Origin: Trypanosoma brucei
Lineage: Eukaryota
NCBI GenBank assembly: GCA_000002445.1
Contig: CP000071.1
Span: 448,001-512,000, forward strand
DNA length: 64,000 nucleotides
Direction of reading: 5' to 3'
Within the stretch, counting starts at the first letter, position 1. Each line of letters begins with the position of its first letter. Below, piece by piece: positions 6,109-45,862 of the stretch. The notes below the pieces were generated by a model. The model was not told where the DNA came from. It saw only the letters and a list, made by a program, of their open reading frames with translations, and did no database searches. The position numbers and the translations under genes are program-made.

Positions 6109-6229
6109 GGAGAGTACAACACCCCGGGTTCCAGCGCCATCACTGATCGCCGTACTAACGAGGCCTGTGGCCGCTTAACTTCACAAATCGGACGGGATAT
6201 GGTGCATTCGGCCAAGTATGGTCGTACCC
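6109..6229 (-). rRNA. 5S: 5S ribosomal RNA gene (copy 1)
   Basis: The reverse complement of 6109-6229 reads GGGTACGACCATACTTGGCCGAATGCACCATATCCCGTCCGATTTGTGAAGTTAAGCGGCCACAGGCCTCGTTAGTACGGCGATCAGTGATGGCGCTGGAACCCGGGGTGTTGTACTCTCC. This is a canonical kinetoplastid-type 5S rRNA of about 120 nt. A T6 run follows on the same strand as a Pol III terminator. The 3' end is uncertain by a few nt. Confidence 0.93.
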
Positions 6230-6843
6230 GACGTCCGGTAAACCGAATGCGTGCATTTATTCCGATACCCGTCAAACTTGTTCATGAGGGATTTGAAGTG
6301 TAGGAGACGCGAAAAAAAAAAAAAGAAAAGAAGAAAAGCACCTTTCTTACCACTCCATACCATCCCCCCTCCAGTACCTACAGACACCATTTCCATCACA
6401 CTACACGACACTAAAAAGTGGAAGAAAACATAACTTTCCTCTGAGTCCGGAGGGGGGGGGGTTGGGGGCGGATGAAACAGCCGTTCCGATGCACATCTAT
6501 TATTCCATACAAAAGGGTAGGAAAGCAAGTTATGAAGTTTCCCTGCCTCCTTCCCCATTTTTCCCTCCTTCCTTGCTGTCGTGTTGTCAGCCCTGTGCGC
6601 AAAAATTACCGTTATTGTATATGAGATCGGCCATGGTGGTAGCAACTTTTTCTGGGAGTATGGTCAGTGTGTGTTTCCTCTTGTATTTGCTTGTGTTTAT
6701 GCGTGTGTGTGTTTGTGCTGGTGCCGAAGGGAGAGAAGGGGAACTTTTAACGGCAACCAGACAGTGAAGAAACTTAGAAACGGACGATTGGCATAGATTT
6801 AACACAAGTTGAATGACGGCTGCAGCTCTAGGAAAAAAGTTTG

Positions 6844-6964
6844 GGAGAGTACAACACCCCGGGTTCCAGCGCCATCACTGATCGCCGTACTAACGAGGCC
6901 TGTGGCCGCTTAACTTCACAAATCGGACGGGATATGGTGCATTCGGCCAAGTATGGTCGTACCC
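6844..6964 (-). rRNA. 5S: 5S ribosomal RNA gene (copy 2)
   Basis: Same sequence as copy 1, offset by 735 bp. Confidence 0.92.
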
Positions 6965-7579
6965 GACGTCCGGTAAACCGAATGCGTGCATTTATTCCGA
7001 TACCCGTCAAACTTGTTCATGAGGGATTTGAAGTGTAGGAGACGCGAAAAAAAAAAAAAAGAAAAGAAGAAAAGCACCTTTCTTACCACTCCATACCATC
7101 CCCCCTCCAGTACCTACAGACACCATTTCCATCACACTACACGACACTAAAAAGTGGAAGAAAACATAACTTTCCTCTGAGTCCGGAGGGGGGGGGGTTG
7201 GGGGCGGATGAAACAGCCGTTCCGATGCACATCTATTATTCCATACAAAAGGGTAGGAAAGCAAGTTATGAAGTTTCCCTGCCTCCTTCCCCATTTTTCC
7301 CTCCTTCCTTGCTGTCGTGTTGTCAGCCCTGTGCGCAAAAATTACCGTTATTGTATATGAGATCGGCCATGGTGGTAGCAACTTTTTCTGGGAGTATGGT
7401 CAGTGTGTGTTTCCTCTTGTATTTGCTTGTGTTTATGCGTGTGTGTGTTTGTGCTGGTGCCGAAGGGAGAGAAGGGGAACTTTTAACGGCAACCAGACAG
7501 TGAAGAAACTTAGAAACGGACGATTGGCATAGATTTAACACAAGTTGAATGACGGCTGCAGCTCTAGGAAAAAAGTTTG

Positions 7580-7700
7580 GGAGAGTACAACACCCCGGGT
7601 TCCAGCGCCATCACTGATCGCCGTACTAACGAGGCCTGTGGCCGCTTAACTTCACAAATCGGACGGGATATGGTGCATTCGGCCAAGTATGGTCGTACCC
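7580..7700 (-). rRNA. 5S: 5S ribosomal RNA gene (copy 3)
   Basis: Same sequence as copy 1, at a 736 bp period. Confidence 0.92.
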
Positions 7701-8315
7701 GACGTCCGGTAAACCGAATGCGTGCATTTATTCCGATACCCGTCAAACTTGTTCATGAGGGATTTGAAGTGTAGGAGACGCGAAAAAAAAAAAAAAGAAA
7801 AGAAGAAAAGCACCTTTCTTACCACTCCATACCATCCCCCCTCCAGTACCTACAGACACCATTTCCATCACACTACACGACACTAAAAAGTGGAAGAAAA
7901 CATAACTTTCCTCTGAGTCCGGAGGGGGGGGGGTTGGGGGCGGATGAAACAGCCGTTCCGATGCACATCTATTATTCCATACAAAAGGGTAGGAAAGCAA
8001 GTTATGAAGTTTCCCTGCCTCCTTCCCCATTTTTCCCTCCTTCCTTGCTGTCGTGTTGTCAGCCCTGTGCGCAAAAATTACCGTTATTGTATATGAGATC
8101 GGCCATGGTGGTAGCAACTTTTTCTGGGAGTATGGTCAGTGTGTGTTTCCTCTTGTATTTGCTTGTGTTTATGCGTGTGTGTGTTTGTGCTGGTGCCGAA
8201 GGGAGAGAAGGGGAACTTTTAACGGCAACCAGACAGTGAAGAAACTTAGAAACGGACGATTGGCATAGATTTAACACAAGTTGAATGACGGCTGCAGCTC
8301 TAGGAAAAAAGTTTG

Positions 8316-8436
8316 GGAGAGTACAACACCCCGGGTTCCAGCGCCATCACTGATCGCCGTACTAACGAGGCCTGTGGCCGCTTAACTTCACAAATCGGAC
8401 GGGATATGGTGCATTCGGCCAAGTATGGTCGTACCC
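8316..8436 (-). rRNA. 5S: 5S ribosomal RNA gene (copy 4)
   Basis: Same sequence as copy 1, at a 736 bp period. Confidence 0.92.
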
Positions 8437-9051
8437 GACGTCCGGTAAACCGAATGCGTGCATTTATTCCGATACCCGTCAAACTTGTTCATGAGGGATT
8501 TGAAGTGTAGGAGACGCGAAAAAAAAAAAAAGAAAAGAAGAAAAGCACCTTTCTTACCACTCCATACCATCCCCCCTCCAGTACCTACAGACACCATTTC
8601 CATCACACTACACGACACTAAAAAGTGGAAGAAAACATAACTTTCCTCTGAGTCCGGAGGGGGGGGGGGTTGGGGGCGGATGAAACAGCCGTTCCGATGC
8701 ACATCTATTATTCCATACAAAAGGGTAGGAAAGCAAGTTATGAAGTTTCCCTGCCTCCTTCCCCATTTTTCCCTCCTTCCTTGCTGTCGTGTTGTCAGCC
8801 CTGTGCGCAAAAATTACCGTTATTGTATATGAGATCGGCCATGGTGGTAGCAACTTTTTCTGGGAGTATGGTCAGTGTGTGTTTCCTCTTGTATTTGCTT
8901 GTGTTTATGCGTGTGTGTGTTTGTGCTGGTGCCGAAGGGAGAGAAGGGGAACTTTTAACGGCAACCAGACAGTGAAGAAACTTAGAAACGGACGATTGGC
9001 ATAGATTTAACACAAGTTGAATGACGGCTGCAGCTCTAGGAAAAAAGTTTG

Positions 9052-9172
9052 GGAGAGTACAACACCCCGGGTTCCAGCGCCATCACTGATCGCCGTACTA
9101 ACGAGGCCTGTGGCCGCTTAACTTCACAAATCGGACGGGATATGGTGCATTCGGCCAAGTATGGTCGTACCC
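9052..9172 (-). rRNA. 5S: 5S ribosomal RNA gene (copy 5)
   Basis: Same sequence as copy 1, at a 736 bp period. Confidence 0.92.
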
Positions 9173-9787
9173 GACGTCCGGTAAACCGAATGCGTGCATT
9201 TATTCCGATACCCGTCAAACTTGTTCATGAGGGATTTGAAGTGTAGGAGACGCGAAAAAAAAAAAAAGAAAAGAAGAAAAGCACCTTTCTTACCACTCCA
9301 TACCATCCCCCCTCCAGTACCTACAGACACCATTTCCATCACACTACACGACACTAAAAAGTGGAAGAAAACATAACTTTCCTCTGAGTCCGGAGGGGGG
9401 GGGGGTTGGGGGCGGATGAAACAGCCGTTCCGATGCACATCTATTATTCCATACAAAAGGGTAGGAAAGCAAGTTATGAAGTTTCCCTGCCTCCTTCCCC
9501 ATTTTTCCCTCCTTCCTTGCTGTCGTGTTGTCAGCCCTGTGCGCAAAAATTACCGTTATTGTATATGAGATCGGCCATGGTGGTAGCAACTTTTTCTGGG
9601 AGTATGGTCAGTGTGTGTTTCCTCTTGTATTTGCTTGTGTTTATGCGTGTGTGTGTTTGTGCTGGTGCCGAAGGGAGAGAAGGGGAACTTTTAACGGCAA
9701 CCAGACAGTGAAGAAACTTAGAAACGGACGATTGGCATAGATTTAACACAAGTTGAATGACGGCTGCAGCTCTAGGAAAAAAGTTTG

Positions 9788-9908
9788 GGAGAGTACAACA
9801 CCCCGGGTTCCAGCGCCATCACTGATCGCCGTACTAACGAGGCCTGTGGCCGCTTAACTTCACAAATCGGACGGGATATGGTGCATTCGGCCAAGTATGG
9901 TCGTACCC
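9788..9908 (-). rRNA. 5S: 5S ribosomal RNA gene (copy 6)
   Basis: Same sequence as copy 1, at a 736 bp period. Confidence 0.92.
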
Positions 9909-10523
9909 GACGTCCGGTAAACCGAATGCGTGCATTTATTCCGATACCCGTCAAACTTGTTCATGAGGGATTTGAAGTGTAGGAGACGCGAAAAAAAAAA
10001 AAAGAAAAGAAGAAAAGCACCTTTCTTACCACTCCATACCATCCCCCCTCCAGTACCTACAGACACCATTTCCATCACACTACACGACACTAAAAAGTGG
10101 AAGAAAACATAACTTTCCTCTGAGTCCGGAGGGGGGGGGGGTTGGGGGCGGATGAAACAGCCGTTCCGATGCACATCTATTATTCCATACAAAAGGGTAG
10201 GAAAGCAAGTTATGAAGTTTCCCTGCCTCCTTCCCCATTTTTCCCTCCTTCCTTGCTGTCGTGTTGTCAGCCCTGTGCGCAAAAATTACCGTTATTGTAT
10301 ATGAGATCGGCCATGGTGGTAGCAACTTTTTCTGGGAGTATGGTCAGTGTGTGTTTCCTCTTGTATTTGCTTGTGTTTATGCGTGTGTGTGTTTGTGCTG
10401 GTGCCGAAGGGAGAGAAGGGGAACTTTTAACGGCAACCAGACAGTGAAGAAACTTAGAAACGGACGATTGGCATAGATTTAACACAAGTTGAATGACGGC
10501 TGCAGCTCTAGGAAAAAAGTTTG

Positions 10524-10644
10524 GGAGAGTACAACACCCCGGGTTCCAGCGCCATCACTGATCGCCGTACTAACGAGGCCTGTGGCCGCTTAACTTCACA
10601 AATCGGACGGGATATGGTGCATTCGGCCAAGTATGGTCGTACCC
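10524..10644 (-). rRNA. 5S: 5S ribosomal RNA gene (copy 7)
   Basis: Same sequence as copy 1, at a 736 bp period. Confidence 0.92.
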
Positions 10645-11258
10645 GACGTCCGGTAAACCGAATGCGTGCATTTATTCCGATACCCGTCAAACTTGTTCAT
10701 GAGGGATTTGAAGTGTAGGAGACGCGAAAAAAAAAAAAAGAAAAGAAGAAAAGCACCTTTCTTACCACTCCATACCATCCCCCCTCCAGTACCTACAGAC
10801 ACCATTTCCATCACACTACACGACACTAAAAAGTGGAAGAAAACATAACTTTCCTCTGAGTCCGGAGGGGGGGGGGTTGGGGGCGGATGAAACAGCCGTT
10901 CCGATGCACATCTATTATTCCATACAAAAGGGTAGGAAAGCAAGTTATGAAGTTTCCCTGCCTCCTTCCCCATTTTTCCCTCCTTCCTTNCTGTCGTGTT
11001 GTCAGCCCTGTGCGCAAAAATTACCGTTATTGTATATGAGATCGGCCATGGTGGTAGCAACTTTTTCTGGGAGTATGGTCAGTGTGTGTTTCCTCTTGTA
11101 TTTGCTTGTGTTTATGCGTGTGTGTGTTTGTGCTGGTGCCGAAGGGAGAGAAGGGGAACTTTTAACGGCAACCAGACAGTGAAGAAACTTAGAAACGGAC
11201 GATTGGCATAGATTTAACACAAGTTGAATGACGGCTGCAGCTCTAGGAAAAAAGTTTG

Positions 11259-11379
11259 GGAGAGTACAACACCCCGGGTTCCAGCGCCATCACTGATCGC
11301 CGTACTAACGAGGCCTGTGGCCGCTTAACTTCACAAATCGGACGGGATATGGTGCATTCGGCCAAGTATGGTCGTACCC
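11259..11379 (-). rRNA. 5S: 5S ribosomal RNA gene (copy 8)
   Basis: Same sequence as copy 1, at a 735 bp period. Confidence 0.92.
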
Positions 11380-15639: not shown

Positions 15640-16032
15640 GTAGATTTTTTTGTATTTACACTCCTTTTTATTCGTTTCAAAGTCGATAATTCTGTTGATT
15701 TTCAATTTAAATGTTGTAAAAGTATTTTTTCTCTTAAATTTATGAGATTCTTCCGTGGAGCTTCAGTTTTTTCTTTGTTATTTGTTTTGTCTTTTATACC
15801 TAAAAATATTTGGAGAGAATCAGTGTGTTTGTGTTTTTTTGTGTAATATTTACCCATATATTTCAGTGGGGAGATTACAGAAGTAATATATATATATATA
15901 AAAGATCCTTTGTATTGCTTATGTGCTTTGTCTTTAAGCGGTTGTTGCTTTTCCTTTTTAACATATATTTTTGAAACATGATTTGGCCACATATTTTTTA
16001 TATTAGTTTTATTTAAATATTCTGTAGATTGA
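15640..16032 (+). promoter_or_regulatory. Pyrimidine-rich intergenic tract with candidate spliced-leader acceptor AGs upstream of TSR1 (trans-splicing / coupled polyadenylation signal region)
   Basis: T/C-rich runs (ttttttttgtatttacactcctttttattcgtttc ... ttttttatattagttttatttaaatattctgtag) lie immediately 5' of the ATG at 16033. This is typical of kinetoplastid polypyrimidine-tract/AG processing signals. The precise acceptor is not determinable from sequence. Confidence 0.4.
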
Positions 16033-18366
16033 ATGGCACGTAATAAGGCTCACAAGCAGAGGTTTGCATCTAAACGTGCTGTTTCGGGTTTGGCAAAGGG
16101 ACGCACTATTCCAACGAAAAAGGAGAGTGTAAAAGCGCTTCATCCGTTGGAGGCCAAAGAGAGATCAAGGCAGTCTTTAGCTGCCCTGCGGGACAAGAAA
16201 AGGGCCAATGCCCTTCAACAAAAGAGAATCGGGAAAATATCCGGGTTGCCTCGGGCTGTTGGTGTTCTACCAGCAAATGAATCGGCTAACACGAACGCGG
16301 TCATTCGGGGCTTGTGCTTTTCTTTGGGGAGTGAAGTTCGTGACACTTGCCTCCCGTTCACTGCAAGTTCGAAAGAAAAGAAGGCATCTTTTACATTTAT
16401 GTCAGAGCGGAATGGCAATCTTCAGAGTTGTGTTGACATCGGTAAGGTCGCTGACTTTTTGGTGTTAGCACTGGATGTCTCGCGATCCGTACAGGAAATG
16501 ATACGTAACGTGCAAGAATCTATGGAAGTAGAAGATTGTGATGATGTTGGCTCCGTTGTGGCTACTACATGGTACGGAGATATTGGTCTTTGTATCACTG
16601 CGTTCACAAGAGAGCTGATTGCAGCTCTTAATGCCCAAGGGGTGCCGAGTGTAGCTGTAGTACTGCAAAATCTTGATACGTTCACTGAAAAGCAGCGTCA
16701 TAAAGTTATTAAGGTTCACCAGCGTTACTTTTTATCTGTTCTCCCTGAAACGACGAAGGTATTTACTGTGATTGATCAGGGTGACTATGACCCGGTGCTT
16801 CGGCATCTCCATGTCGCTAAACTTCGTTCACTAGCATGGCGTGATCAACATCCGTATTTGATAGTGGAGGAGGGATATTTTGATGATGATGCTCAAAAAC
16901 TTGTCGTAGGTGGTTACCTTCGTGGCATGGCACTCTCGGCCGAGCAATTGATTCACCTCACAAACCACGGGACGTTTCAGATTGAGAACATATGCCGGGG
17001 GGACCCAAGGGGTGATGAAGCCCAGGTTATTGATTCGTGTGAGAAGGCACACAGAGAGTCACTTGACTACGTTCAAGTGAATGCCACTCTTGACGATGCA
17101 GACGGACCAACTGAGGAAGATATTGCCTATCACAAATCAATAGGATTCAAAAAGGTCAAAGTTCCAGAGGGTGTATCTGATTACCAGGCAGCATGGTATG
17201 AATTCGAGGGTAGTGATATAAACTCGGAGACAGATATTGGTGAATCGGTACCGGGGGACGATGAGTATGCTGCGTCTGATCACTTTTCTCAGGGGACTTT
17301 AAGAACAACAGTTGACTTTCTTAAGGTGGAGGATGTAATTCGTTTGGAGCGGATGAACGACGACGAACGAGCTGCGGAAATACAGAGACTTAAAGAGGAG
17401 AGTGAAGAAGATGCGTGGAATCCAGATATTGTAGACACACCTTTCAATCTACCAGCAAGGCAAAGATTTATGAAATATCGCGGACTCAAGAGCTTCCAAA
17501 CGGGTAAATGGGACGCGGCGGAGAATCTCCCGCCACATTACGCTTATATTTACAAGTTACAGGGCATAACCCGCATTCGTGAGGCAGCGCTAGCGAAATG
17601 CGCCAGTGGAAGTGTCGCAACTGAGCAATTTGTGTATATAACACTCGTGGATGTTCCAAGTAAGGTCTGGAGAAGCGCTGTCGAAGGCGGTTGCATTATT
17701 GCATCGGGTCAGCTGGAGCATGAGCAGAAATGGTCAGTCCTTCACTTTAGGATTCAAAGGAGCTCGGATTGCGATGAACCAATTAAGTCAAAAATACCTA
17801 TGCTCGCTCATATAGGTTTTAGGAAGTTTTACGTGTCACCCATCTTCAGTGACATTACTACCTCAGATCGTACGAAGTTTGCCCGCTTTTTTCATCCAAA
17901 CGAAAAATTTTGTATGGCGAGTTTTTTTGGCCCTATATCGTATCAGCCTTGCCCTATTCTTTTGTTTGAAGTTCCGTCACTGGAGGAGCAGAATGAGGAC
18001 AATTCATTGCATTTGGCTTGCTTTGGAGGGGCACTACCGCCAAATCCAGACCTGTTGGTGCTCAAGCGTGCGGTACTGACGGGAAGAGTAGCGACTATTC
18101 ACAAAAAACAAATTGTAGTCAAATACATGTTTTTCAACGACGAGGACGTGCAGTGGTTTCAATCTGTGGACCTTCGCACTCGGTTGGGGAGACGTGGGAA
18201 AATAATAAAGGCTGTGGGAACTCGTGGGCTGTTTAAAGCATCCTTGAACGATCAGGTAATGCAGCATGATCTTGTTTGCATGGATCTTTATAAGCGTGTC
18301 TTCCCGAAGTGGACAACTTTGCCGTTTTGCATTTCGGATGTTCCGAAAGTTGTTGCCGAAGAGTAG
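16033..18366 (+). CDS. TSR1: Ribosome biogenesis protein TSR1 (BMS1/TSR1 family, AARP2CN/DUF663 C-terminal domain, no P-loop)
   Basis: A 777-aa ORF with an ATG start. The N-terminus is basic (MARNKAHKQRFASKRAV...). No GxxxxGKS P-loop is present, which argues against BMS1. The C-terminal region (VLTGRVATIHKKQIVVKYMFFNDEDVQWFQSVDLRTRLGRRGKI) is typical of the BMS1/TSR1 C-terminal domain. Confidence 0.8.
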   Translation: MARNKAHKQRFASKRAVSGLAKGRTIPTKKESVKALHPLEAKERSRQSLAALRDKKRANALQQKRIGKISGLPRAVGVLPANESANTNAVIRGLCFSLGSEVRDTCLPFTASSKEKKASFTFMSERNGNLQSCVDIGKVADFLVLALDVSRSVQEMIRNVQESMEVEDCDDVGSVVATTWYGDIGLCITAFTRELIAALNAQGVPSVAVVLQNLDTFTEKQRHKVIKVHQRYFLSVLPETTKVFTVIDQGDYDPVLRHLHVAKLRSLAWRDQHPYLIVEEGYFDDDAQKLVVGGYLRGMALSAEQLIHLTNHGTFQIENICRGDPRGDEAQVIDSCEKAHRESLDYVQVNATLDDADGPTEEDIAYHKSIGFKKVKVPEGVSDYQAAWYEFEGSDINSETDIGESVPGDDEYAASDHFSQGTLRTTVDFLKVEDVIRLERMNDDERAAEIQRLKEESEEDAWNPDIVDTPFNLPARQRFMKYRGLKSFQTGKWDAAENLPPHYAYIYKLQGITRIREAALAKCASGSVATEQFVYITLVDVPSKVWRSAVEGGCIIASGQLEHEQKWSVLHFRIQRSSDCDEPIKSKIPMLAHIGFRKFYVSPIFSDITTSDRTKFARFFHPNEKFCMASFFGPISYQPCPILLFEVPSLEEQNEDNSLHLACFGGALPPNPDLLVLKRAVLTGRVATIHKKQIVVKYMFFNDEDVQWFQSVDLRTRLGRRGKIIKAVGTRGLFKASLNDQVMQHDLVCMDLYKRVFPKWTTLPFCISDVPKVVAEE

Positions 18367-41163: not shown

Positions 41164-42032
41164 GTGCCAGTGACTCGTAACGACGGAATGTTAGGAAAGA
41201 AGGGGTGAGATGATGTCATCGGAATCGAAGTGGGTGTGATGAAGAGGTGAATGGGGAAAGAAGTTGGCGAGTAGAGACAGACGTAATGGGAGATGAAAAA
41301 GGTTTCATGATAATGGGGAGCTGTTTGAGTCACCGTAGGCTTTTCTTTGACCTTCTTGATGCTTAACTAATCTGCTAGAGGAAGTGTGGTGCTTCCTGAA
41401 GGGAAGTTCTTGTTTGTGGTCAGCGCTTTCACACCCATTTTTTCCCGTTTGCGTTTCTACAATGTCCGTTGGGCAGTGTAAGCGGTTCTTATTCACCCAT
41501 TTTGACTTTTTTTCCTTTTATGAGAGTGGAGCATGCGTGTATCCATATATTGGGGCGGGAGGGGGCCGGTGTATGAAGGGGGGAAGGGGGGAGGTGAGCG
41601 ACGGAGAAGAAGGAATGAGGAGGGGCAATGAAGGCAGTATTGTCAAGGCCAGTATTTAGAACCGAATTTTGTTCTGGCATTTCCATTCCGTTAGAGAGTC
41701 CGTATTGCGGTGTCACTGTGCAGTGGTGCCTCTAGTTCTCTTTTTCCTGTTTTCGCTGACTTCGTTGTAAATACTACTGTACTATGCAAATGCATCTGGG
41801 CTTTTCAGCATCTTCTTCCCCACAAAATGTCATACCAACACCACGAATCAGTCTCACTGCTTCCCCCTTTTGTGCTCTTTCATGTGTTTGACTGCCTCCG
41901 AAAGCCATGCTCGAGGTTACCCAAATGTGTGACAAAATGCAGGAGAGTATATATATACATATACATATAATTGTTGGTCGTTCCTTCTTACATTATTGCA
42001 CCTGAGGTGACCCGTTTAGGTACTCGTGTTTT

Positions 42033-42037
<5 letters not shown>

Positions 42038-42069
<32 letters not shown>
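42038..42069. repeat. (GT)16 microsatellite
   Basis: gtgtgtgt... x16 in the intergenic region upstream of the helicase gene. Confidence 0.9.
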
Positions 42070-42828: not shown

Positions 42829-44053
42829 ATGTATGGGATGAACAGAGGAGGAGGCGGTGGATACCGCAACGACCGGATGGGTGCACTCGGTGCCAACCTA
42901 CAGGATGTAAAGTGGGACCAGGTGAATGTTGTGGCTCCTCAGTGGAACTATTACAAACCCCAGGAGCGTTGCAGTGACGAGGAGGTGGCACAATACATGC
43001 GCGACAACCACATTACTATTTATGGTGATTCCGTGCCCCAGCCAATGCTCAAGTTCTCTGACCTCGTTGCGCCGGACACCATTCATCAGGCATTCATAGA
43101 CCTCGGCTACAAGAGCCCGACCCCAATTCAGTCTATCGCCTGGCCAATCCTTCTCAACTCACGCGACCTTGTCGGCGTGGCGAAGACCGGATCCGGCAAG
43201 ACCATGGGTTTCATGGTCCCTGCCGCCCTTCATATAATGGCGCAGCCGCCCATCCGCGTGGGTGAGGGTCCCATTGCTTTGGTGCTCGCGCCGACGAGGG
43301 AACTTGCGGTGCAGATCGAAGAGGAGACGCGTAAGGTGCTACGACGTGTGCCGACCATCACGACGGCGTGTTTGTATGGCGGTACACCAAAGGGGCCGCA
43401 AATCCGTGCCCTTCGAGCTGGGGTACATGTCTGCATTGCAACTCCCGGCCGCCTCATCGACCTGCTGGAGATTCGCGCTGCCAATCTTCTGCGCGTGACG
43501 TTCCTTGTGCTTGACGAAGCGGACCGTATGCTTGATATGGGGTTCGAGGTGCAAATTCGAAAGATTTGCCAGCAGATTCGCAAGGATCGGCAGACGCTTA
43601 TGTTCTCGGCAACGTGGCCCCAAGAAATAAGGAACCTCGCTGCTAGTTTTCAACGTGACTTCATCCGTGTTCATGTTGGATCTGAGGACCTAATTGCGAA
43701 CGCTGATGTTACTCAGCACGTGAGTGTGGTGGAAGATTACGACAAACAGCGGCGGCTGGAGGAGATTCTGCAAAAGGTTGGCAAGCAGAGGGTTCTCATC
43801 TTTGTAAAGACGAAGCGTACCGCTGATTCCCTGCACCATTCGCTACAGCGCCTCATTGGAGGCTCAGTGATGGCCATCCATGGTGATAAGGAACAATCGC
43901 AGCGCGATTATGTGCTTGACCGCTTCCGTCGCGACGAAAGGTCCGTGCTGGTAGCAACGGACGTTGCCGCCCGCGGGCTTGACATTAAGAACCTCGATGT
44001 GGTGATTAACTTCGACATGCCCACAAACATAGAAGATTACGTGCATCGTATTG
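42829..44053 (+). CDS. DBP2B: ATP-dependent DEAD-box RNA helicase (DDX5/Dbp2 family), exon 1
   Basis: ATG start. Helicase motifs are present: Q motif / GSGKT (motif I), PTRELA, DEAD (LVLDEADRMLDMGF), SAT, and the C-terminal-domain motifs up to HRIG. The unspliced reading frame terminates at HRIGM* (tga at 44059-61), in the middle of motif VI. A GTATGT donor follows immediately after 44053. Confidence 0.85.
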
Positions 44054-44178
44054 GTATGTGAATTGCAATCCGGTTGAGTTCAACTACGTGCTTTCCCCTC
44101 TTCGCTTTGCTTCCCCTTCTCTCACCCCCTCTCCACTGCATAGGCGCAAAACATAGGCACATTCCACAACGCCAGAAG

Positions 44179-44180
<2 letters not shown>

Positions 44181-44227
<47 letters not shown>
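44181..44227. repeat. (AC)n microsatellite (about 23 units) inside the helicase intron
   Basis: acacacac... run. Confidence 0.9.
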
Positions 44228-44232
<5 letters not shown>

Positions 44233-44430
44233 TTACACGTATGTACAGTGGTGTGTAAACCTATATATGGGTTTCTGCCACTGTATTCTTCTCTGTTTTC
44301 GGTTGTGCGTTTTGTTCTTACCCCCGATTTGGTTCTCATGTCTTCCATGCACACGTGCAGCAGGCACTAGGGGAATTAGACGTAAATACTGGTAGGTTAA
44401 CGCAATAGGAAGCTTCTACTGATTTTTTTG

Positions 44431-44450
44431 ATATATATATATATATATAT
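44431..44450. repeat. (AT)10 microsatellite inside the helicase intron
   Basis: atatatatatatatatatat, followed by gtatatgcgtatgtgtgtg. Confidence 0.85.
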
Positions 44451-45377
44451 GTATATGCGTATGTGTGTGCTGCCTATCTCTGTATATAGGGTGTGACGCG
44501 GGGATAGCCAAAGAAGTAGTGTGTTTCGACGCGTGTGTAGGATGTGCCTTTATGTTTGTGTTTGTGTATGTGTCTTTCCCCTCCCCGCCTCCTCTCTCCG
44601 TGGCAGTCGGCTAACGGCAGGCGACTCACTTTCGCTTCAGTGCAGCGCGTTGTGCACGCGCAATGGGTTAGTGGTAGTTGCCAGGCGCTTAGGGAGTAAA
44701 TTGTTGCACATCTATCGTTTTGGTACTTCAGTTATACATGTGTGTGTGTGGAGATAGTTTCTCCCACTTTACGTATGTAGGGATGCTTCCACGTGGGAAT
44801 ATACGTGCGAACGTACCGTGCCTGAAGTAGTGCGGTAGCAACAATCCCTTTGTTCGTGCATGTGTGCGTGTTTGGTACATCTGAATGAATGAATTCTCTG
44901 AAGTGGCTATACGCAAGGAAGTGTCCCATAGGTTTGCAAGGATGAGGGTCGCTCGGGCCTGTACCTGTGGCACATTTCCCTCTGTGTGTGTGTGTATGCG
45001 TTTTTGTTTTGCGTCGGCCACAGAACCAGAGTTCACATGTACCATTAATGCGCAAGCACATATGGCACTCCGCTCTCTTTCCGCTTGTTGGATACAGAGT
45101 CTCCCCCTGCGCGGCGCAGCGAAGTGAGGTAGTACGCTGGTGTCGCCGGCTGTCACGATGCTCCCTTCTTCAACAACTTTTAGAAGTTGGTTACTTCTGT
45201 ACATTTGCTGAAAACTTTCTTTTCTCTTCTCCTTTCTCTAATTTCACTTCCCCTTGACATTGCCGTTGCTCTCATTGTGATGTGGTGTTGTTGTGCGCAA
45301 CGATACCATTTCAATTGGCGACATGTTTGACAAACTGCCGCACATCAATGTCAACTTCCTTACTGTCATATGAAAAG

Positions 45378-45862
45378 GGCGTACCGGTCGTGCCGGGCAG
45401 CGTGGTGATGCTTACACATTTGTTAGCGGTGCCGATCCGTCCAAGACTGTTCGTGACTTGATCGACATTCTTCGCCGCGCCAATCAGGAGATTCCACCAG
45501 GGCTTCACTCGCTTGCTGGCCGCGGTGGCGGTGGCAGTGGCGGTGGCGGCTTCCGTGGGGGCCGTCGCGGAGGGTACGGTGGGGGCGGTGGCGGTTACGG
45601 CTACGGCCGCTCTGGTGCGCAGTACGGCTCTGGGCCCACATACGGCAGGGATTACCGTGGCGCTCCATCCCACCATCAATCGGGTATTTCTGTTGGTGGC
45701 AATACATCTGATGCCTATTGGAGAGGGGGAGCGCCACCGCCTGGTCAACAGCCTTACTATCCGGTGTGCGGAGGTAATAAACGGACCCGTGAGGTGTCCG
45801 GCGGCTTTCACTCAGATCCTCAGAACTCGTACCGTCAGCAACCGACGGGTGGTTCTTATTAG
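45378..45862 (+). CDS. DBP2B: DEAD-box RNA helicase exon 2: end of motif VI plus Gly/Arg/Tyr-rich (RGG/GYG) C-terminal tail
   Basis: After the acceptor the frame reads (G)[83 protein letters not shown]...QQPTGGSY*. The spliced product is about 569 aa. Confidence 0.85.

What the first reader, a model, noticed from the sequence alone, without database searches (positions are those of the whole stretch)
42829..45862. DEAD-box helicase gene interrupted by a 1.3 kb cis-spliced intron (GUAUGU donor) inside motif VI
In this organismal context genes are essentially intron-less, but the helicase ORF stops at HRIGM* exactly where HRIGRTGRAG is expected. The rest of motif VI and an RGG/GYG tail sit 1324 bp downstream in frame-compatible phase. 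The donor is the canonical GTATGT and the acceptor is aaaag|g. Kinetoplastids are known to have only two cis-spliced genes, poly(A) polymerase and a DBP2-type DEAD-box helicase, and this locus matches the latter. At about 1.3 kb, packed with (AC)23 and (AT)10 microsatellites, it is large for a kinetoplastid intron. That size and content may be lineage- or strain-variable.
Basis: partly seen in the sequence, partly recalled or inferred. Interest (0 to 1): 0.85.

Follow-up and report, generated by a model that had tools for sequence, protein, structure and literature searches.

The report
Known trypanosome DBP2B helicase intron

Summary
The ORF 42829..44061 ends HRIGM*. GTATGT starts at 44054 and AAAAG|G ends at 45377. 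Removing the 1324-nt phase-1 intron restores motif VI (HRIGRTGRAG) and gives a 569-aa protein.

[quoted passage not shown] The window is T. brucei chromosome 8, 98.7% identical to DAL972.

Seven other trypanosomatid genomes carry an intron at the same codon and phase, in the same gene neighbourhood. Between the two T. brucei strains, all eight exon differences are synonymous, while the intron carries about 3% substitutions plus microsatellite indels (1324 vs 1301 nt).

The papers read here report RNA-seq junctions, RT-PCR, U1C/U1-70K crosslinks at the 5' splice site and dependence on DRBD3 for Tb927.8.1510.

Two side claims fail:
- Three cis-spliced genes are now known, with RBP20 added in 2024.
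- This intron is not large. It is the shortest of the eight species' DBP2B introns measured here, and the published median is about 3350 nt.

Verdict: real, correctly interpreted, already known, low interest. One minor lead is an intron block at +14..+26 that is conserved within the genus Trypanosoma.

The parts
42829..44053 (+). DBP2B exon 1. It encodes residues 1-408 plus the first base of Gly409. It covers the N-terminal G-rich segment, the whole DEAD domain and Helicase_C up to HRI-G.
   Evidence: ORF listing and translation. Pfam DEAD 98-269 and Helicase_C 306-409. All seven differences from DAL972 in this exon are synonymous.
44054..45377 (+). Cis-spliced spliceosomal intron: 1324 nt, phase 1, GT...AG.
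   Evidence: 13-16 stops in each frame and GC 0.47, against 0.55 and 0.62 in the exons. Versus DAL972 it has 39 substitutions and 33 indel columns. An intron sits at the same codon and phase in seven other trypanosomatids.
44054..44059 (+). 5' splice site GTATGT, preceded by exonic A at -4 and T at -2.
   Evidence: Sequence. GTATG was found at this position in all nine orthologous sequences read. It matches the kinetoplastid 5' splice-site motif described in PMC11613528.
44067..44079 (+). Intron block AATCCGGTTGAGT at +14..+26, conserved within the genus Trypanosoma. Its role is unknown. It lies near the published U1C/U1-70K crosslinks at +11 and +22.
   Evidence: Ten of 13 columns are invariant across T. 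brucei, T. cruzi, T. vivax and T. theileri. The block is also present in T. melophagium and in a Logan contig from an unidentified trypanosome. The U1 duplex energy is not above the intron background.
44181..44226 (+). Perfect (AC)23 microsatellite inside the intron.
   Evidence: A 14-nt deletion and several substitutions fall in this tract in DAL972.
44431..44450 (+). Perfect (AT)10 microsatellite inside the intron.
   Evidence: A 10-nt deletion falls here in DAL972.
45215..45255 (+). Main 3' polypyrimidine tract of the intron: two adjacent runs, 45215-45239 and 45242-45255.
   Evidence: Comparable tracts lie upstream of the acceptor in T. vivax, T. theileri, T. cruzi and Leptomonas.
45187..45375 (+). 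AG-free zone between the last upstream AG (45185) and the acceptor AG. The acceptor is the first AG downstream of the polypyrimidine tract.
   Evidence: The gap is 191 nt, against a mean AG spacing of 24.5 nt in the intron. The equivalent gap is 213 nt in L. donovani and about 118 nt in T. vivax, the latter read by eye.
45376..45377 (+). 3' splice-site AG, in the context gaaaAG|G, with A at -3.
   Evidence: Sequence and a unique pattern match. T. vivax also has A at -3. T. cruzi, T. theileri, Leptomonas and L. donovani have C.
45378..45862 (+). DBP2B exon 2. It carries the last two bases of Gly409, RTGRAG (the rest of motif VI), the end of the helicase core, the Gly/Arg/Tyr-rich tail and the TAG stop.
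   Evidence: Translation. It aligns to Dbp2 residues 449-533. The frame is open only from 45374 and has no in-frame ATG, so it cannot be a separate gene. It has one synonymous difference from DAL972.

Best explanation
The locus is the T. brucei gene DBP2B (Tb927.8.1510), a nuclear DDX5/Dbp2-family DEAD-box RNA helicase. A single GT-AG spliceosomal intron of 1324 nt, in phase 1, sits inside the Gly codon of motif VI (HRI-G|RTGRAG).

Proposed mechanism:
1. The gene is transcribed within a polycistron, and the 5' end of the mRNA receives the spliced leader.
2. U1 snRNP recognises the extended 5' splice site G|GUAUGU. This step comes from the literature.
3. The spliceosome uses the first AG downstream of the 3' polypyrimidine tract, at the end of a 191-nt AG-free zone. 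The sequence is shown here; the mechanism is inferred.
4. Exon ligation restores motif VI and attaches the Gly/Arg/Tyr-rich tail, giving the 569-aa enzyme.

Unspliced RNA terminates one codon into the intron (HRIGM*). The product would be a 410-aa protein lacking the arginines of motif VI, and presumably inactive.

The amount of active helicase can therefore be set by splicing efficiency, and by competition with spliced-leader trans-splicing at the same acceptor. Published T. brucei work points this way: depleting U1C or DRBD3 lowers the cis-spliced product. A dedicated regulatory role is inferred, not shown.
For: Sequence anatomy:
- The donor and acceptor patterns are unique in the window.
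- The Helicase_C match becomes complete only after splicing.
- The spliced protein aligns without a break across the junction to Dbp2 (8ark, E = 2.5e-139) and DDX17.
- The spliced product is 100% identical over 569 aa to the annotated T. b. gambiense DAL972 protein. The DAL972 gene span of 3011 nt is annotated as a spliced gene.

Strain comparison:
- The window is 98.7% identical to DAL972 chromosome 8.
- Exons differ at 8 sites in 1710 nt, all synonymous. The intron has 39 substitutions and 33 indel columns in 1324 nt.

Species comparison:
- The intron sits at the same codon and phase with GTATG...AG in T. cruzi (1451 nt), T. vivax (1501), Phytomonas (1634), T. theileri (1795), T. melophagium (1814), Leptomonas seymouri (2833) and L. 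donovani (4457).
- Gene order is conserved: Rav1-like, DUF1674, hypothetical, DBP2B, NUDIX, GPHR.
- Angomonas deanei has a contiguous intronless orthologue containing HRIGRTGRAG.
- The AG-free zone and polypyrimidine tract precede the acceptor.

Literature:
- TopHat junctions for Tb927.8.1510 (PMC2936537).
- U1C/U1-70K iCLIP at the 5' splice site, and a cis-splicing defect on U1C knockdown (PMC4041458).
- Phase 1, the GTATG motif, A at -4 and T at -2, and split reads across species (PMC11613528).
- DRBD3-dependent split reads and SL-exon2 isoforms (PMC12592628).
- smFISH of the DBP2B intron (PMC11888146).
Against: - No transcript data for this exact strain were examined here. My attempt to recover T. 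brucei cDNA contigs spanning the junction from the protein database failed.
- The acceptor has A at -3, whereas C is the commonest base in DBP2B introns. T. vivax shares the A.
- The predicted U1 duplex at the 5' splice site is modest, at -6.8 kcal/mol, and within the range of random intron windows.
- The regulatory role of the intron is not demonstrated. RNAi of the gene gave no severe growth defect in the work cited.
Confidence: 0.97

Rival explanations
1. Exon 1 is a complete, naturally truncated helicase gene ending HRIGM*, and the downstream G-rich ORF is a separate gene or non-coding DNA. Automatic annotation of several orthologues implies this reading.
For: Public annotations of T. cruzi (406 aa), T. 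vivax (400 aa), T. congolense (409 aa) and Phytomonas (419 aa) stop at or just after the donor. Separate ORFs of 165, 129 and 118 aa are called inside exon 2 in T. cruzi, T. vivax and T. theileri.
Against: - The truncated product lacks RTGRAG of motif VI.
- The exon 2 frame opens only 4 nt upstream of the acceptor and has no in-frame ATG.
- The separately called ORFs in other species lie in frame with exon 2, by my arithmetic.
- The donor and acceptor are conserved at the same codon in eight species.
- Angomonas has the two parts fused with no intron.
- Published split reads join the exons.
Confidence: 0.01
2. The acceptor at 45377 serves mainly as a spliced-leader trans-splice site. Exon 2 is then released as its own SL-capped RNA, and exon 1 is polyadenylated within the intron. 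Cis-splicing would be a minor outcome.
For: - SL-exon2 isoforms were found for all three intron genes in L. mexicana and for PAP1 and RBP20 in T. brucei.
- DBP2B coverage plots indicate SL-exon2 isoforms in T. brucei.
- The polypyrimidine tract followed by the first AG is also the signal for trans-splicing.
Against: - An SL-exon2 RNA cannot encode the tail, because exon 2 has no in-frame AUG.
- Both exons are under purifying selection as a single reading frame.
- Cis-spliced split reads and tagged full-length DBP2B protein are reported.
- This isoform is better seen as a competing by-product than as an alternative explanation.
Confidence: 0.02
3. The interruption is an assembly artefact, or a recent insertion of repeat-rich DNA that has made this copy a pseudogene.
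For: The interrupting sequence is rich in microsatellites: (AC)23, (AT)10 and two (TG)6 runs.
Against: - An independent assembly (DAL972) has the same interruption at the same nucleotide.
- Seven other species have it too.
- No target-site duplication or terminal repeats are needed to explain the precise GT...AG boundaries.
- The exons show only synonymous change.
Confidence: 0.005

Closest known systems
Kinetoplastid DBP2B intron (T. brucei Tb927.8.1510; Berriman/Ivens 2005 annotation, Kolev 2010, Preusser 2014, Kostygov 2024)
   Same: It is the same gene. The protein is identical to the annotated DAL972 orthologue. The intron site (HRI|G), phase 1, the GTATG donor with A at -4 and T at -2, the G-rich second exon and the gene neighbourhood all match.
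   Different: Nothing of substance differs. This strain's intron is 23 nt longer than DAL972's, through microsatellite indels. The acceptor has A at -3 rather than the commoner C.
The other kinetoplastid cis-introns: PAP1 (Tb927.3.3160) and RBP20 (Tb927.8.6440)
   Same: They share the GTATG 5' motif, recognition by U1 snRNP, dependence on DRBD3 and competition with SL trans-splicing at exon 2. All three encode nuclear proteins that act on RNA.
   Different: The genes, phases (PAP1 phase 2, RBP20 phase 0) and typical lengths differ. PAP1 has a median of about 440 nt and RBP20 about 1300 nt. The DBP2B intron has been lost several times within the Trypanosomatidae, whereas the other two have not.
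Conserved long intron of fungal and animal DBP2/DDX5 (Iggo 1991; Barta & Iggo 1995; Kilchert 2015, PMC4695336)
   Same: It belongs to the same helicase subfamily. It is a single, unusually long intron late in the C-terminal RecA domain and is also phase 1. It is poorly spliced and used for negative or auto-regulation in yeasts.
   Different: It is not at the same position. In the fungus Protomyces lactucae-debilis the only intron (512 nt) splits SRGI|D of motif V, 24 codons upstream of the trypanosomatid site. My recollection of the S. cerevisiae coordinates agrees, but that is from memory and untested. Autoregulation has not been shown for the trypanosome gene.
Intronless paralogue DBP2A / HEL64 (Tb927.10.6630)
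   Same: It is a DDX5/Dbp2-type helicase, about 53% identical to this protein (P0109).
   Different: It has no intron and sits at a different locus. It arose by a duplication early in the kinetoplastids.

Membership tests
Kinetoplastid DBP2B cis-spliced gene | Orthology to DBP2B rather than to the intronless DBP2A | tested here: met
   100% identity to the annotated DAL972 protein, and 71-90% identity over the aligned part to DBP2B orthologues, against about 53% to HEL64/DBP2A. Synteny is conserved in six other species.
Kinetoplastid DBP2B cis-spliced gene | Intron in phase 1 between the helicase core and the Gly-rich second exon, at HRI|G | tested here: met
   PMC11613528 gives phase 1.
Kinetoplastid DBP2B cis-spliced gene | 5' intron motif GTATG, with exonic A at -4 and usually T at -2 | tested here: met
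   The sequence is cgtATTG|GTATGT. The motif is described.
Kinetoplastid DBP2B cis-spliced gene | Spliced junction present in mRNA | not testable with these tools
   No reads are available here, and the search for T. brucei cDNA-derived proteins failed. Published RNA-seq, RT-PCR and split-read data report the junction.
U2-type GT-AG spliceosomal intron | GT...AG termini, a polypyrimidine tract, and use of the first AG downstream of it | tested here: met
   GT at 44054 and AG at 45376. The polypyrimidine tract is at 45215-45255, followed by a 191-nt AG-free zone.
U2-type GT-AG spliceosomal intron | Complementarity of the 5' splice site to the 5' end of U1 snRNA | tested here: inconclusive
   The duplex with the kinetoplastid U1 consensus AACUCACCUGCA is -6.8 kcal/mol. 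This is within the spread of random intron windows (mean -4.4, sd 2.9). The T. brucei U1 sequence itself was not available.
U2-type GT-AG spliceosomal intron | Branch point adenosine | not testable with these tools
   Kinetoplastids have no branch-point consensus. Lariat mapping would be needed.
DDX5/Dbp2 subfamily of DEAD-box helicases | Full set of core motifs (AKTGSGKT, PTRELA, DEAD, SAT, HRIGRTGRAG), best match to Dbp2/DDX5/DDX17, and a Gly/Arg-rich tail | tested here: met
   The motifs are visible in the translation. Pfam DEAD and Helicase_C both match. The best solved relatives are Dbp2 (2.5e-139) and DDX17 (1.9e-124).
Conserved fungal/animal DBP2/DDX5 intron | Same intron position in the protein alignment | tested here: not met
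   The Protomyces intron lies in SRGI|D, phase 1, codon 452. HRIG begins at residue 473. That is 24 codons upstream of the trypanosome site. Only one fungus was tested.

The most novel reading that the evidence does not exclude
The block AATCCGGTTGAGT at +14..+26 is conserved in six Trypanosoma lineages; only TTCC is kept in Leishmaniinae and Phytomonas. It contains UGAGUU, which is complementary to the U1 5' end AACUCA. It also lies between the published U1C/U1-70K crosslinks at +11 and +22.

It could be a second U1-binding site or a pseudo-5' splice site that sets how efficiently the DBP2B intron is removed. That would make the intron a regulatory, possibly autoregulatory, switch. It would be functionally convergent with the yeast DBP2 intron, which lies 24 codons upstream.
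Probability: 0.15. Interest if true: 0.4.

Novelty: already known. Interest (0 to 1): 0.12.

Why it matters
It matters little as a discovery. The intron has been annotated since the TriTryp genome papers and has been studied repeatedly, through RNA-seq, U1 iCLIP, DRBD3 knockdown, smFISH and a 2024 survey across the kinetoplastids.

The result is useful in three smaller ways:
- It shows that the first-stage reader can recognise a genuine rare cis-intron from raw sequence.
- It flags that many public annotations of the orthologues are wrong. They are truncated at the donor, read through into the intron, or call exon 2 as a separate ORF.
- It gives a concrete intron-length series of 1301 to 4457 nt across eight species, plus a conserved element near the donor that could be tested for a role in splicing control.

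Tried and rejected
- **cDNA evidence.** A second database search with the C-terminal 206 aa spanning the junction was meant to recover T. brucei cDNA-derived fragments. It returned only generic helicases, not even the DAL972 protein, so no direct transcript evidence was obtained.
- **Published intron table.** Supplementary Table S1 of PMC11613528, which lists intron lengths per species, is not held. I measured the lengths myself instead.
- **Fungal intron position.** Iggo 1991 and Barta & Iggo 1995 are not held. Moore 2011 was not found. I mapped the fungal intron empirically in Protomyces. Look-ups for Cryptococcus and Batrachochytrium failed, so only one fungus was tested.
- **ncRNA in the intron.** The Rfam gathering-threshold scan of the whole window found only 5S rRNA. 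A permissive scan of the intron gave only sub-threshold hits on the microsatellites. I reject a known ncRNA in the intron.
- **U1 pairing.** The duplex energies of the 5' splice site and of the +14..+26 block are not distinguishable from random intron windows. The idea is kept only as a lead.
- **Local hairpin.** I considered a small GTTG/CAAC hairpin at the conserved block. I rejected it because the pairing is not kept in T. cruzi or T. vivax, judged by eye.
- **Read-through or frameshifting.** Rejected, because the intron has 13-16 stops in each frame.
- **Technical note.** Locus files fetched in parallel calls did not reach the script machine. Those loci were read with the sequence tools instead.
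Full report
**1. What is in the sequence**

The region was read directly and ORFs were listed. An ATG ORF runs from 42829 to 44061 on the + strand and encodes 410 aa ending ...NIEDYVHRIGM*. The last sense codons read CAT CGT ATT G|GT ATG TGA, so GTATGT begins at 44054.

Downstream, the sequence ...catatgaaaAG|GG CGT ACC GGT CGT GCC GGG at 45376-45396 encodes G-RTGRAG when the G at 44053 is joined to 45378. A script confirmed the arithmetic:
- Exon 1 is 1225 nt, the intron 1324 nt and exon 2 485 nt. The exon sum is divisible by three.
- The joined product is 569 aa with HRIGRTGRAG restored, followed by a Gly/Arg/Tyr-rich tail.
- The intron has 13-16 stops in each forward frame and a lower GC content (0.47) than the exons (0.55 and 0.62).
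- The exon 2 frame is open only from 45374. It contains no in-frame ATG and no Met at all, so it cannot be a gene of its own.

Degenerate patterns for the donor and for the acceptor each occur once in the 64 kb window, against 0.00-0.01 expected in shuffles.

**2. What the protein is**

Pfam finds DEAD and Helicase_C. In the unspliced product the Helicase_C match is cut off at profile position 104 of 110. In the spliced product it is complete.

Against solved structures, the best hits are yeast Dbp2 (8ark, E = 2.5e-139) and human DDX17 (E = 1.9e-124). The Dbp2 alignment runs straight across the junction (...[19 protein letters not shown]...) and into the RGG tail.

**3. Where the window comes from, and whether the gene model is known**

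A database search with the spliced protein returns a 569-aa entry that is 100% identical over its full length. [quoted passage not shown] Its genomic locus is on FN554971.1, chromosome 8, where the gene spans 3011 nt and is therefore annotated as spliced.

The window aligns to that locus at 98.7% identity over 23 kb. It is thus T. brucei, but not the DAL972 assembly itself.

The published papers read here are explicit:
- Kolev et al. 2010 detected by RNA-seq only 'the experimentally validated introns' in poly(A) polymerase (Tb927.3.3160) and the DEAD/H helicase Tb927.8.1510 (PMC2936537).
- Preusser et al. 2014 found U1C and U1-70K crosslinks at its 5' splice site, at +11 and +22. They also saw a cis-splicing defect after U1C knockdown (PMC4041458).
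- Kostygov et al. 2024 surveyed all kinetoplastids and named the gene DBP2B. They report phase 1, a GTATG motif with exonic A at -4 and T at -2, and split reads (PMC11613528).
- A 2025 study shows that DRBD3 depletion lowers DBP2B split reads and protein, and notes SL-exon2 isoforms (PMC12592628).
- Another 2025 study images the DBP2B intron by smFISH (PMC11888146).

The finding is therefore already known.

**4. Independent support obtained here**

*Strain comparison.* Versus DAL972 the two exons differ at 8 of 1710 positions, and the proteins are identical, so every difference is synonymous. The intron carries 39 substitutions and 33 indel columns in 1324 nt. The largest indels are a 14-nt one in the (AC)n tract and a 10-nt one in the (AT)n tract, giving 1324 nt here against 1301 nt in DAL972. 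This is the pattern expected of two coding exons flanking a non-coding intron.

*Species comparison.* I fetched the orthologous loci and located the donor and acceptor in each. All have ...CAY CGN ATT G|GTATG and AG|G(N) CGN ACN GGN at the same codon and phase.

| Species | Intron length (nt) |
|---|---|
| T. brucei (this window / DAL972) | 1324 / 1301 |
| T. cruzi | 1451 |
| T. vivax | 1501 |
| Phytomonas Hart1 | 1634 |
| T. theileri | 1795 |
| T. melophagium | 1814 |
| Leptomonas seymouri | 2833 |
| L. donovani | 4457 |

Gene order is conserved throughout: a Rav1-like gene, DUF1674, a hypothetical gene, DBP2B, NUDIX and GPHR. Angomonas deanei, reported to have lost the intron, has a contiguous HRIGRTGRAG.

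*Acceptor architecture.* The last AG before the acceptor lies 191 nt upstream, against a mean AG spacing of 24.5 nt in the intron. The main polypyrimidine tract (45215-45255) lies inside this AG-free zone. The acceptor is therefore the first AG after the tract. The same layout is seen in L. donovani, with 213 nt AG-free, and by eye in T. vivax.

**5. How it most likely works**

- *Shown in the literature:* U1 snRNP proteins contact the 5' splice site, the exons are joined in mRNA, and splicing depends on U1C and DRBD3.
- *Shown here:* only splicing yields an intact motif VI and a complete helicase C-terminal domain. Unspliced RNA stops one codon into the intron. Exon 2 alone has no start codon.
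- *Inferred:* intron retention, or spliced-leader trans-splicing at the same acceptor, gives non-productive RNAs. The intron is then a point at which helicase output can be tuned. A dedicated regulatory or autoregulatory role remains unproven, and RNAi of the gene gives no severe growth phenotype.

**6.

- 'Only two cis-spliced genes' is out of date. RBP20 is a third.
- 'Large for a kinetoplastid intron' is wrong for this gene. The published DBP2B median is about 3350 nt, and the T. brucei intron is the shortest of the eight species measured here. It is long only relative to PAP1.

**7. Comparison with the yeast and human DBP2/DDX5 intron**

That family is known for a long, position-conserved, poorly spliced regulatory intron (PMC4695336). 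I tested whether the trypanosome intron sits at the same site.

In the fungus Protomyces lactucae-debilis the single intron (512 nt, GTAAGT...TTTAG) is phase 1 within SRGI|D of motif V. That is codon 452, whereas HRIG starts at residue 473. The site is 24 codons upstream of the trypanosome position.

The two introns share a phase and a general location but are not positionally homologous. Only one fungus could be tested (searches failed). My recollection that S. cerevisiae DBP2 is split at the same ARGI|D site is from memory only.

**8. Things looked for and not found**

- No Rfam family lies in the intron. The only hits are sub-threshold matches on the microsatellites.
- There are no tRNAs in the window.
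- U1 duplex energies are not distinguishable from background.

**9. A minor lead**

The first 26 nt of the intron are far better conserved among Trypanosoma species than the rest. After GTATG(T)GA there is a block ATTCCGGTTGAGT at +14..+26. Ten of its 13 columns are invariant in four species. It is also present in T. melophagium and in an unidentified trypanosome contig.

Leishmaniinae and Phytomonas keep only TTCC at about the same distance. The block contains UGAGUU, complementary to the U1 5' end AACUCA (consensus taken). It lies by the reported +22 crosslink.

The predicted duplexes are -8 to -11.6 kcal/mol, stronger than at the true splice site but not unusual for this intron. Kostygov et al. 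mention conserved pyrimidines downstream of the motif, so even this may be partly known.

**10. Verdict**

It is the textbook DBP2B intron of T. brucei: already annotated, experimentally validated, and the subject of a dedicated 2024 comparative study. Interest is low.

Noticed in passing
window 6111-11379, minus strand: A tandem array of eight 5S rRNA genes, each scoring 89.1 bits over the full-length model, spaced about 736 nt apart. They lie on the opposite strand to the protein-coding ORFs that start at 16033.
   Followed up: no
window 44067-44079; L002 about 9227-9239; L003 about 9209-9221; L004 about 9224-9236; L009 about 1298-1310; L010 about 7224-7236: An intron block, ATTCCGGTTGAGT, at +14..+26 is conserved in six Trypanosoma lineages. 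Only TTCC survives in Leptomonas, Leishmania and Phytomonas. It contains UGAGUU, complementary to the U1 5' end, and sits next to the published U1C/U1-70K crosslink at +22. The U1 duplex energy is not above background.
   Followed up: partly
L002 8001-9221 and 10799-11296; L003 8001-9203 and 10834-11223; L004 8001-9560 and 11326-11682; L005 10001-11500; L008 10001-11260: Public annotations of DBP2B orthologues are wrong in several genomes. In T. cruzi, T. vivax and Phytomonas the protein stops at or shortly after the donor. In T. theileri and Leptomonas it reads through into the intron. In the T. cruzi, T. vivax and T. theileri assemblies the exon 2 tail is called as a separate hypothetical ORF that lies in frame with exon 2.
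   Followed up: partly
window 45187-45375; L007 about 16000-16212: There is an unusually long AG-free zone before the acceptor: 191 nt here, against a mean AG spacing of 24.5 nt, and 213 nt in L. donovani. The polypyrimidine tract lies 120-160 nt upstream of the AG. This suggests a distant branch point and scanning to the first AG.
   Followed up: partly
L006 2355-2866 (Protomyces lactucae-debilis DBP2): The single intron of this fungal DBP2 is also phase 1, but it splits SRGI|D of motif V, 24 codons upstream of the trypanosomatid site. Two long, late, phase-1 introns in the same helicase subfamily therefore sit at different positions.
   Followed up: partly
window 45378-45862: Exon 2 contains no Met codon in frame. 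The spliced-leader-exon2 transcripts reported in the literature therefore cannot encode the Gly/Arg/Tyr-rich tail from an AUG.
   Followed up: yes
window 45376-45377; L003 10695-10696: The two salivarian trypanosomes, T. brucei and T. vivax, share the acceptor context GAAAAG|G with A at -3. T. cruzi, T. theileri, Leptomonas and L. donovani have CAG|G.
   Followed up: no
window 42037-42069 and 41948-41969: A (TG)16 and a (TA)11-like microsatellite lie in the intergenic region upstream of DBP2B. Dinucleotide repeats are therefore not particular to the intron.
   Followed up: no
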